From positions 585,925 to 649,924 of the forward strand of contig CAIRNR010000007.1 in assembly GCA_903879985.1 (NCBI GenBank): DNA of 64,000 nt; not shown here. The letters run 5' to 3'. Below, a report on this DNA, generated by a model with database tools, continues. This stretch comes from an uncultured candidate division WWE3 bacterium (GTDB lineage: Bacteria; Patescibacteriota; WWE3; UBA101185; UBA10185).

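What the first reader, a model, noticed from the sequence alone, without database searches (positions are those of the whole stretch)
26225..26681. MerR/excisionase-type HTH encoded in-frame at the N-terminus of the giant surface protein
The first about 70 residues ('NILGISPSSLRRLESEGKITSERLDNNHRAYRVEQINELKKL') look like a MerR-family DNA-binding domain. They are followed in-frame, with no stop codon, by a linker, a signal-anchor helix and then 8,600 extracellular residues. One reading is a membrane-tethered one-component regulator fused to its own cargo. The other is an unrecognised separate small regulator whose stop codon was lost, with the true giant-protein start at M84 'MYRQRLLQ' (ATG at 26432..26430). 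A perfect inverted repeat TGTACAA-N6-TTGTACA at 26862..26881 in the upstream divergent promoter is a plausible cognate operator.
Basis: partly seen in the sequence, partly recalled or inferred. Interest (0 to 1): 0.55.

Follow-up and report, generated by a model that had tools for sequence, protein, structure and literature searches.

The report, continued
The parts
183..26681 (-). Giant gene, 8,832 aa: HTH, linker, TM, ectodomain, S74 chaperone and C-terminal domain in one reading frame
26625..26681 (-). N-terminal tail, aa 1-19, with the conserved start M-x3-A-Q
   Evidence: Met is invariant and A5/Q6 are present in 20 of 23 relatives. In all 16 genome loci the ORF opens at this Met just after a stop codon.
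26505..26624 (-). MerR-superfamily winged HTH, aa 20-59 (strand, helix, helix, strand, strand)
   Evidence: Pfam MerR and MerR_1 above cut-off. 23 of 23 relatives match. AF2 pLDDT >93. Foldseek best matches are RacA, BldC and Xis. PDB profile hits are BrlR, BldC and CueR. Mean pairwise identity is 52%.
26412..26504 (-). Long helix, aa 60-90, continuing from the wing. Its start is conserved (aa 60-72); the rest is Lys/Glu-rich and variable.
26301..26411 (-). Variable, predicted disordered linker, aa 91-127. The linker region as a whole contains M84 (ATG 26432..26430, in the preceding helix), which is not a conserved start.
   Evidence: pLDDT <50. 12% identity, and M84 is Met in 1 of 23 sequences.
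26241..26300 (-). Single TM / signal-anchor helix, aa 128-147 (core YLVIAFIITTLLLAG), oriented N-in
   Evidence: Top hydropathy peak of the protein. AF2 helix 128-146. A TM follows the HTH in at least 74 of 83 relatives. Positive-inside bias is 3.05 against 1.81 K+R.
26052..26234 (-). Juxtamembrane helix (aa 150-189) and the conserved first ectodomain motif VLAA..N(F/Y).F..N.P..F (aa 186-210)
1047..1229 (-). Peptidase_S74 intramolecular-chaperone (self-cleaving, trimerising) domain, aa 8485-8545, starting with S-D-S-R-L-K
   Evidence: PF13884 at 56 bits against a cut-off of 22, E 5e-15. Sequence read.
26733..26761 (-). Conserved sigma-70-like promoter of the giant gene: TTGACG, 17 bp, TAGACT
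   Evidence: Scan. The -35 is invariant and the -10 is aligned in 12 orthologous upstream regions.
26692..26725 (-). Leader hairpin (GTTATTAA ... TTAGTAAC plus an inner stem). It starts a few nt after the predicted transcription start and ends 10 nt before the ATG.
   Evidence: All 13 leaders fold alike. 82% of cells are paired against 33-45% in slid controls, 5 pairs change on both sides, and covariation exceeds 500 of 500 shuffles. Distant family members also have a leader hairpin, and 20 control genes do not.
26781..26800 (-). Conserved box about 37-41 nt upstream of the -35 (AAAACCTTAYCA in relatives). In the window it forms a 16/20 direct repeat with the 5' arm of the leader (26711..26730).
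   Evidence: Individually not significant; the position is consistent in about 10 of 12 loci.
26862..26881 (.). It is present but not supported.
   Evidence: Chance level (52% of shuffles) and not conserved.

Best explanation
One gene encodes one protein: a type-II (N-in, C-out) membrane-anchored, probably trimeric, tail-fibre-like giant surface protein. Its cytoplasmic N-terminus is a minimal MerR-superfamily winged HTH of the BldC/RacA/Xis kind.

Shown:
- The fusion is real and conserved.
- The HTH is the most constrained part of the N-terminus.
- It is followed by a variable basic linker and one TM helix.
- Relatives carry 1-8 tandem HTHs before the TM.
- The C-terminus carries an S74 self-cleaving chaperone domain that marks trimeric fibres.

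Inferred:
- The HTH sits in the cytoplasm and binds double-stranded DNA through the conserved recognition-helix Arg (R39, which aligns with BldC R30) and the wing arginines R50 and R56.
- Because the fibre is trimeric, or the HTHs are tandem, several HTHs act together.

Most likely mechanism: the HTH acts as a low-specificity, avidity-driven architectural DNA anchor, RacA-like but with its own TM helix instead of DivIVA. This anchor ties the base of the surface fibre to the nucleoid. Because transcription and translation are coupled, the DNA it binds is probably near its own locus. It is not a classical effector-responsive MerR regulator.
For: - Pfam MerR and MerR_1 are above the cut-off and match 23 of 23 aligned relatives.
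- 229 representative proteins hit at E<=1e-3. Many align over HTH, linker, TM and first ectodomain at the N-terminus of proteins of 1,000-7,185 aa.
- 16 of 16 genome loci have the in-frame fusion with the conserved start.
- Synteny (divergent from the atp operon) holds in 13 of 16 loci and in the 7,185-aa orthologue P0040.
- AF2 gives pLDDT >93 for aa 20-90.
- The best solved-structure matches are RacA-DNA, BldC-DNA, GlnR and Xis, with TM-score 0.65-0.79 normalised to the target and rmsd 1.5-2.5 A.
- The PDB profile alignment places R39, R50 and R56 on BldC DNA-contact positions.
- At least 74 of 83 relatives have a TM after the HTH. HTH copy number is 1 (42 proteins), 2 (37), and 3, 4, 5 or 8 (one each).
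- There is a positive-inside bias.
- Identity is 52% in the wHTH against 12% in the linker.
- The S74 domain scores 56 bits.
- The recognition helix (S-x-S/K-T-L-R-R-L/W-E) is nearly constant across subfamilies whose leader palindromes differ completely. This argues for a common or generic ligand.
Against: - No DNA binding has been measured, and no binding site has been identified.
- The gene has conserved cis-elements (upstream box, direct repeat, leader hairpin or palindrome). These could instead be specific operators, which would favour a true autoregulator.
- Foldseek E-values are weak (best 7.8e-3) because the domain is only about 50 residues long.
- HTH folds can be co-opted for protein binding, as in RodZ.
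- Trimerisation is inferred only from the S74 domain.
- In the window protein itself, the 15 residues flanking the TM do not show positive-inside bias (2 against 3). Only the whole N-terminal region does (net +10).
Confidence: 0.45

Rival explanations
1. Membrane-tethered, sequence-specific transcription regulator. The HTH binds conserved elements at its own promoter or leader (the upstream box, the direct repeat flanking the promoter, or the leader palindrome). It either autoregulates the giant gene or relays host contact sensed by the fibre. It could act while tethered, like ToxR and CadC, or after intramembrane proteolysis.
For: - The cis-elements are conserved: the box lies 37-41 nt upstream of the -35 in about 10 of 12 loci and resembles the 5' arm of the leader.
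- A leader inverted repeat is present in every family member examined, including the 8xHTH gene, where it is a perfect 15+15 palindrome. It is absent from 20 control genes.
- The nascent HTH emerges while the polymerase is still near the promoter (inference).
- An M50 site-2-type protease gene lies at 35111..35719.
Against: - The recognition helix is almost invariant while the palindrome sequences differ completely between subfamilies (TTACTAA, TTGGACA, ACCTATGCATTGCTT). Arm spacing varies from 0 to 19 nt. Neither fits one dimer geometry.
- The stems are continuous, as in RNA hairpins.
- There is no effector domain, and the promoter spacer is an ordinary 17 bp.
- Arrays of up to 8 HTHs are not typical of regulators.
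- The motifs are not enriched elsewhere in the window.
Confidence: 0.27
2. The HTH fold has been co-opted for a role that does not involve DNA. It could be a cytoplasmic docking domain for a partner protein, as the RodZ HTH binds MreB. It could also simply be a folded, basic 'stopper' that fixes the N-in topology of the signal anchor.
For: - The HTH-TM-ectodomain layout is the same as RodZ (my own knowledge).
- The near-invariant helix across paralogues could reflect one conserved protein partner.
- No operator was found.
Against: - The conserved residues are exactly the MerR/BldC DNA-contact set: R39 in the recognition helix and R50/R56 in the wing.
- Tandem multiplication of the domain suits a polymeric ligand such as DNA.
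- A topology stopper would not need 52% identity or to score above the Pfam threshold.
Confidence: 0.15
3. There are two genes, or the fusion is an artefact. Either a small stand-alone MerR-like regulator lost its stop codon and the giant protein really starts at M84, or the fusion arose from misassembly.
For: - An in-frame ATG exists at 26432..26430.
- A 77-aa protein (P0001) matches aa 1-73 of the window protein at 97% identity (the first 71 residues are identical) and is in the public collection.
Against: - 16 of 16 loci and all long relatives keep a single frame.
- M84 is not conserved.
- P0001 comes from a 549-nt contig that matches the window for 460 nt and then switches to unrelated sequence.
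- The same 8,832-aa gene is assembled independently in several metagenomes and one MAG.
- This genome has no Shine-Dalgarno sequences, so none can favour M84.
Confidence: 0.02

Closest known systems
RacA (Bacillus subtilis chromosome-to-pole anchor)
   Same: An N-terminal MerR-like winged HTH is used architecturally to attach DNA to the cell envelope. RacA-DNA is the best Foldseek match to the model (5i44). RacA is described as an architectural MerR-like wHTH in PMC5859096.
   Different: RacA is soluble and reaches the membrane through a C-terminal coiled coil that binds DivIVA. Here the HTH is joined covalently through a TM helix to an 8,600-aa extracellular fibre. Sequence identity is only about 18%.
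BldC family (minimal MerR-like wHTH, Streptomyces)
   Same: The wHTH lacks the MerR effector domain. It matches at both sequence level (E 1.7e-3) and structure level (rmsd 1.6-1.8 A). The base-contacting Arg is conserved. BldC multimerises head-to-tail on direct repeats, which is a plausible model for the tandem or trimeric HTHs seen here.
   Different: BldC is a 68-aa soluble protein. No 9-bp direct-repeat array is present upstream of the giant gene.
Classical MerR-family regulators (MerR, CueR, SoxR, BmrR, BrlR)
   Same: The N-terminal wHTH is homologous: Pfam PF00376/PF13411 above threshold and PDB profile hits to BrlR and CueR.
   Different: There is no conserved dimerisation coiled coil and no effector-binding domain. 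The protein is not soluble. The target promoter has a 17-bp rather than a 19-20-bp spacer and has no operator between -35 and -10.
Bitopic membrane-integrated one-component regulators (ToxR, CadC, TcpP)
   Same: The layout is the same: cytoplasmic N-terminal DNA-binding domain, one TM helix, then an extracytoplasmic domain.
   Different: Those use an OmpR/PhoB-type wHTH and a small periplasmic sensor, and their regulation has been demonstrated. Here the HTH is MerR-type, the 'sensor' is a giant fibre, and regulation is unproven.
RodZ
   Same: N-terminal cytoplasmic HTH, basic linker, single TM helix and extracytoplasmic domain.
   Different: The RodZ HTH is XRE-type and binds MreB, not DNA (my own knowledge). 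Its outer domain is small.
MYRF / MrfA (eukaryotic membrane-bound transcription factor with a phage S74 'ICA' domain)
   Same: One polypeptide combines a DNA-binding domain, a TM helix and a trimerising, self-cleaving Peptidase_S74 domain (PMC3742443, PMC3742440).
   Different: In MYRF the order is DNA-binding domain, S74, TM. Self-cleavage therefore frees the DNA-binding domain. Here the order is HTH, TM, fibre, S74, so S74 cleavage happens outside the cell and cannot release the HTH. The DNA-binding domain is Ndt80-type in MYRF.
Phage tail fibres and tailspikes with a C-terminal intramolecular chaperone (endosialidase type)
   Same: The S74 domain near the C-terminus carries a Ser...Lys motif (SDSRLK). 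The body is long, rich in Thr/Gly/Ser/Asn and repetitive.
   Different: This is a cellular gene in conserved chromosomal synteny. It has an N-terminal HTH and a membrane anchor, and no relative was found in the viral contig collection.

Membership tests
MerR-superfamily winged HTH domain (Pfam PF00376 / PF13411) | Sequence match above the curated threshold | tested here: met
   MerR scores 31.9 bits against 28.2 and MerR_1 scores 25 against 21.6. 23 of 23 relatives match, best E 6.7e-14.
MerR-superfamily winged HTH domain (Pfam PF00376 / PF13411) | Helix-turn-helix followed by a beta-hairpin wing, superposable on solved MerR-like domains | tested here: met
   The AF2 model has E20-22, H23-30, H34-42, E48-50, E56-59 with pLDDT >93. 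Foldseek matches RacA, BldC, Xis, SoxR and CarH with rmsd 1.5-2.5 A over 47-57 columns. E-values are weak (>=7.8e-3) because the domain is short.
MerR-superfamily winged HTH domain (Pfam PF00376 / PF13411) | Conserved DNA-contact residues (Arg in the recognition helix, Arg in the wing) | tested here: met
   R38/R39 are at least 90% conserved and R50/R56 are invariant in A1. R39 aligns with BldC R30. DNA binding itself was not tested.
Classical MerR-family transcription regulator | Long antiparallel coiled-coil dimerisation helix after a second helical pair | tested here: inconclusive
   The model shows one long helix (aa 60-90) directly after the wing. Only aa 60-72 are conserved (32%) and the rest is variable. 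The oligomeric state cannot be tested with these tools.
Classical MerR-family transcription regulator | C-terminal effector-binding domain in a soluble protein of about 130-300 aa | tested here: not met
   After the helix come a disordered linker, a TM helix and an 8,600-aa ectodomain. No effector domain was found by Pfam or NCBIfam.
Classical MerR-family transcription regulator | Target promoter with an over-long 19-20 bp spacer containing a palindromic operator | tested here: not met
   The spacer is 17 bp in the window and in the aligned orthologues, and there is no palindrome between -35 and -10.
BldC family | Stand-alone protein of about 70 aa consisting only of the wHTH | tested here: not met
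   The domain is the N-terminus of an 8,832-aa protein. The one 'stand-alone' near-identical hit is a chimeric contig.
BldC family | Head-to-tail cooperative binding to 9-bp direct repeats | not testable with these tools
   No tandem repeats are present at 26400..27100. Tandem HTH arrays in relatives are compatible with this mode but are not evidence for it.
RacA-like chromosome anchor | MerR-like wHTH plus a module that attaches it to the membrane or pole | tested here: inconclusive
   The wHTH similarity is met. Attachment here is through its own TM helix, not through a DivIVA-binding coiled coil. Chromosome anchoring was not tested.
ToxR/CadC-type membrane-integrated one-component regulators | Cytoplasmic N-terminal DNA-binding domain, one TM helix, extracytoplasmic domain | tested here: met
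ToxR/CadC-type membrane-integrated one-component regulators | OmpR/PhoB-type wHTH and a small sensor domain that controls defined target genes | tested here: not met
   The HTH is MerR-type. The outer part is a giant fibre with an S74 domain. Targets are unknown.
Peptidase_S74 intramolecular-chaperone fibre proteins | PF13884 domain near the C-terminus with a Ser/Lys catalytic pair | tested here: met
   56 bits against a cut-off of 22 at aa 8485-8545. The domain begins S-D-S-R-L-K. Self-cleavage and trimerisation are inferred from the family, not tested.
MYRF-type membrane-bound transcription factor | DNA-binding domain and S74 domain on the same side of the membrane, so that self-cleavage releases the DNA-binding domain | tested here: not met
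   The order here is HTH (aa 20-59), TM (128-147), S74 (8485-8545). The S74 domain is on the opposite side of the membrane.

The most novel reading that the evidence does not exclude
The HTH foot makes these surface-protein genes self-tethering. During coupled transcription and translation, the nascent HTH (or a trimer or tandem array of HTHs) grips DNA at or near its own locus. Insertion of the TM helix then pulls that locus to the membrane. The roughly 26-kb message would then be transcribed, translated and exported in place, with the occupied DNA giving one-at-a-time feedback. In the finished cell this would leave a continuous mechanical link from nucleoid to host-contacting fibre that could carry contact signals to the chromosome.
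Probability: 0.15. Interest if true: 0.85.

Novelty: new variant of a known kind. Interest (0 to 1): 0.62.

Why it matters
CPR/Patescibacteria are a large, mostly uncultured part of bacterial diversity. They live attached to other cells, and their giant surface proteins are leading candidates for host attachment.

A conserved DNA-binding domain on the cytoplasmic end of such fibres is unexpected for three reasons:
- It is found in hundreds of protein clusters.
- It is often multiplied 2-8 times.
- It always precedes a single TM helix.

It implies either a direct nucleoid-to-surface tether or a very short signalling path from the cell surface to DNA. Neither has been described for bacterial adhesins.

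The work also corrects an annotation question. The gene start is 26681 and there is one protein, not two. The N-terminal domain of about 95 aa is small and soluble, so it gives experimenters a practical entry point for binding assays, even though the organisms themselves are uncultured.

Tried and rejected
- Word-indexed homologue search with aa 1-229 found nothing. The exhaustive HMMER search was needed.
- The 23-sequence alignment was too divergent for locus retrieval, so I used the 5 closest sequences.
- P0001 (77 aa) looked like a stand-alone HTH gene, but its 549-nt contig is chimeric.
- The TGTACAA-N6-TTGTACA operator is at chance level and is not conserved.
- RNAalifold on the MAFFT alignment did not recover the leader hairpin. 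Per-sequence folding and explicit pair counting did.
- I tested whether G-U wobble pairs separate an RNA hairpin from a DNA palindrome. 8 of 38 non-Watson-Crick cells are G-U, which is about the chance level, so this is not decisive.
- The upstream-box motif AAACCTTATCA is not enriched in the window (34 matches against 34.1 expected). The leader palindrome and TTCCTGCCATG each occur only once in the window.
- The 9-bp tandem arrays upstream of the 8xHTH gene (L031) looked like BldC-type operators. The same arrays recur at both ends of, and inside, the neighbouring 23S_rRNA_IVP-family gene, so I did not count them as operators.
- No relative was found in the viral contig collection.
- The population variant (GCA_903994745.1) gave no information on selection in the HTH. 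There are zero differences over codons 1-221 and the whole intergenic region.
- This genome has no Shine-Dalgarno motifs, so ribosome-binding-site logic could not be used to choose between starts.

Full report
**1. What is in the sequence**

The minus strand carries one ORF from 26681 to 183, 8,832 aa long. ATG 26681..26679 is the first possible start codon after in-frame stops.

The N-terminus reads MKASAQDNNTNKYVLTQKNYVKVLDASNILGISPSSLRRLESEGKITSERLDNNHRAYRVEQINELKKL.... Residues 25-58 match Pfam MerR (31.9 bits, cut-off 28.2, E 1.1e-7). Residues 25-68 match MerR_1 (25 bits, cut-off 21.6). NCBIfam gives only sub-threshold hits to HTH regions of RepA, IS607 transposase and HspR.

The strongest hydrophobic segment of the whole protein is YLVIAFIITTLLLAG, within aa 128-147. 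Elsewhere, the only Pfam match above its curated cut-off is Peptidase_S74 at aa 8485-8545 (56 bits against 22). That domain begins with S-D-S-R-L-K. The protein is 14% Thr, 13% Gly, 10% Ser and 10% Asn.

**2. Context**

The window is a Patescibacteria (CPR) chromosome.
- The giant gene is transcribed divergently from an F-type ATP synthase operon (27022..33100).
- rplA, rplK, nusG and secE lie beyond that operon.
- An L10 leader lies immediately downstream of the giant gene at 3..178.

The same contig is present in several freshwater metagenomes and one MAG (GCA_903994745.1). Independent gene callers also call an 8,832-aa product there.

**3. Is the fusion real?**

A word-indexed search with aa 1-229 found nothing. 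An exhaustive HMMER search of 1.84 billion representative proteins found 229 proteins at E<=1e-3.

Many of these align across the whole query (HTH, linker, TM and first ectodomain) at the N-terminus of very long proteins:
- P0040: 7,185 aa, aligned 3-229 to 3-226.
- P0045: 4,725 aa.
- P0088: 4,670 aa.
- P0028: 3,894 aa.
- P0062: 3,434 aa.

Several full-length relatives also share the window protein's C-terminus, meaning the S74 region and an ending like ...FDWWIV.

P0040 is a syntenic orthologue. It is divergent from an atp operon on a 994-kb contig, and its precomputed Pfam hits include MerR, HTH_17 and Peptidase_S74.

A scan of one genome per species returned 16 loci. Seven are labelled candidate division WWE3, including the complete genome CP006914. 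Five are labelled Patescibacteria group and four are labelled Saccharibacteria MAGs.
- In all 16, the frame holding the HTH opens at an ATG 20-40 codons before the HTH, just after a stop codon.
- In all 16, that frame runs without a stop through the TM helix and into the ectodomain.
- In 13 of 16, the gene is divergent from the atp operon.

In a 23-sequence alignment the initiator Met is invariant. A5 and Q6 are present in 20 of 23 sequences. M84 is Met only in the window.

Mean pairwise identity by segment is as follows:

| Segment | Identity |
|---|---|
| wHTH | 52% |
| Helix start (aa 60-72) | 32% |
| Linker | 12% |
| TM | 17% |
| First ectodomain motif | 32% |

The only nearly identical 'small HTH protein' is P0001 (77 aa). 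It comes from a 549-nt contig that is identical to the window for 460 nt and then switches to unrelated sequence, so it is an assembly chimera.

The 'lost stop codon, true start at M84' reading is therefore refuted.

**4. What kind of HTH is it?**

AlphaFold2 with the family alignment gives pLDDT >93 for aa 20-90. The elements are strand 20-22, helices 23-30 and 34-42, a hairpin at 48-50 and 56-59, and a long helix at 60-90. A disordered linker follows, then a helix at 128-146 (the TM) and a helix at 150-189.

Foldseek against the PDB ranks RacA-DNA (5i44) first. BldC-DNA (6ama, 6amk), GlnR-DNA, Pukovnik Xis, SoxR and CarH follow. TM-scores normalised to the target are 0.65-0.79 and rmsd is 1.5-2.5 A over about 50 residues. 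The E-values are weak (7.8e-3 at best) because the domain is short.

A family profile searched against PDB sequences finds BrlR (3e-4), BldC (1.7e-3), CueR (1.8e-3) and GlnR. In the BldC alignment, the window's R39 falls on BldC R30. That Arg makes the base contact in BldC and has an equivalent in RacA. The invariant R50 and R56 fall on the BldC wing arginines.

Classical MerR features are absent:
- There is no effector domain.
- There is no conserved coiled coil beyond aa 72.
- The gene's own promoter has a 17-bp spacer.

This is a minimal MerR-superfamily wHTH of the BldC/RacA/Xis type, not a classical MerR regulator.

**5. Family-wide architecture**

I examined the 83 hits of at least 250 aa.
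- All have the first HTH within 130 residues of the N-terminus.
- 74 have a strong hydrophobic helix within 400 residues after the last HTH. Most of the rest fall just under the threshold.
- The median distance from HTH to TM is 63 aa.
- 42 proteins have one HTH and 37 have two. Single proteins have 3, 4, 5 and 8.
- 26 proteins exceed 1,000 aa and 9 exceed 3,000 aa.

Lys plus Arg averages 3.05 in the 15 residues before the TM and 1.81 after it. The N-side count is higher in 55 proteins and lower in 12. The linkers carry a mean net charge of +4. This supports an N-in topology with a cytoplasmic HTH.

All genome hits are Patescibacteria. No relative was found in viral contigs. A public name for one member is simply 'helix-turn-helix domain-containing protein'.

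Full-text searches found no description of this architecture. The giant-gene preprint 10.1101/2023.11.21.568195 does not mention MerR or DNA-binding domains.

**6. The proposed operator, and what is actually conserved upstream**

TGTACAA-attgta-TTGTACA is present at 26862..26881. However, at least one perfect 7-nt inverted repeat with a 0-12 nt spacer appears in 52% of dinucleotide shuffles of the intergenic region. No comparable element occurs at that position in any orthologous upstream region.

The alignment of 12 upstream regions shows four conserved features instead:
- (a) An invariant -35 TTGAC (window 26761..26756), with the -10 placed 17 bp downstream (window TAGACT, 26738..26733).
- (b) A box, AAAACCTTAYCA, about 37-41 nt upstream of the -35. 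In the window it reads AAAGGTTTCC, and in two loci it is palindromic (GGTTTC/GAAACC).
- (c) A leader hairpin that starts a few nucleotides after the predicted transcription start and ends about 10 nt before the ATG. In the window its arms are GTTATTAA (26725..26718) and TTAGTAAC (26699..26692).
- (d) A resemblance between the 5' arm of that hairpin and the upstream box. This is a 16/20 direct repeat in the window. It is the best match at a consistent position in about 10 of 12 loci, although it is not significant in any single locus.

All 13 leaders fold into the same hairpin. On the alignment, 82% of cells pair, against 33-45% when the partner column is slid. Five pairs change on both sides, and the covariation score exceeds all 500 shuffles.

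Distant family members have a leader hairpin of unrelated sequence in the same place:
- The 8xHTH gene has a perfect 15+15 palindrome (z -4.8).
- L025 has z -3.8.
- L028 has z -2.5.
- L032 has z -2.2.
- L033 has z -3.5.

Twenty control genes from the window have a mean z of +0.16, and none is below -2.

The share of G-U pairs does not decide between an RNA hairpin and a DNA palindrome. The continuous stems and the variable arm spacing favour RNA. A 5'-terminal stem-loop that stabilises the message is a reasonable inference for a 26.5-kb mRNA.

The HTH recognition helix is nearly constant while these palindromes differ completely between subfamilies. The hairpin is therefore unlikely to be a sequence-specific operator of the HTH.

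**7. How it most likely works**

Shown: one protein, with a conserved cytoplasmic wHTH, a basic linker, one TM helix, a giant ectodomain and an S74 domain.

Inferred from family knowledge: S74 domains mark trimeric fibres that self-cleave after assembly, as in endosialidase-type proteins and MYRF (PMC3742443). Three HTHs would then sit together under each fibre, and other family members reach the same multiplicity with tandem HTHs.

The following points lead me to prefer an architectural, avidity-driven DNA anchor that links the fibre base to the nucleoid. I give this a probability of about 0.45.
- The closest structural relatives are RacA, Xis and BldC.
- There is no effector domain and no MerR-type promoter.
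- HTH arrays reach 8 copies.
- The recognition helix is invariant across subfamilies.

The main rival is a sequence-specific, membrane-tethered autoregulator or signal relay that uses the conserved box and repeat (about 0.27). Next comes a non-DNA role for the fold (about 0.15). The two-gene or artefact reading is about 0.02.

**8. Comparison with known systems and novelty**

In layout the protein works like ToxR, CadC or RodZ: HTH, TM, outer domain. In logic it works like RacA: a MerR-like wHTH that ties DNA to the envelope. It shares its parts list with MYRF (DNA-binding domain, TM, S74), but in an order that cannot release the DNA-binding domain.

It is a member of the MerR-superfamily wHTH domain family. 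It fails the defining tests for classical MerR regulators, for stand-alone BldC proteins, for ToxR-type regulators (wrong HTH class) and for MYRF (see the membership table).

I rate it a new variant of a known kind: membrane-tethered HTH proteins, here with a MerR-like HTH as the cytoplasmic foot of giant CPR surface fibres. Its function is untested.

**9. Limits**

- All functional statements about DNA binding, trimerisation, topology and RNA structure are inferences from sequence, models and comparative data.
- Many relatives are truncated by contig ends.
- Taxon labels are those of the deposited MAGs.
- The literature search covers only the open-access library available here.

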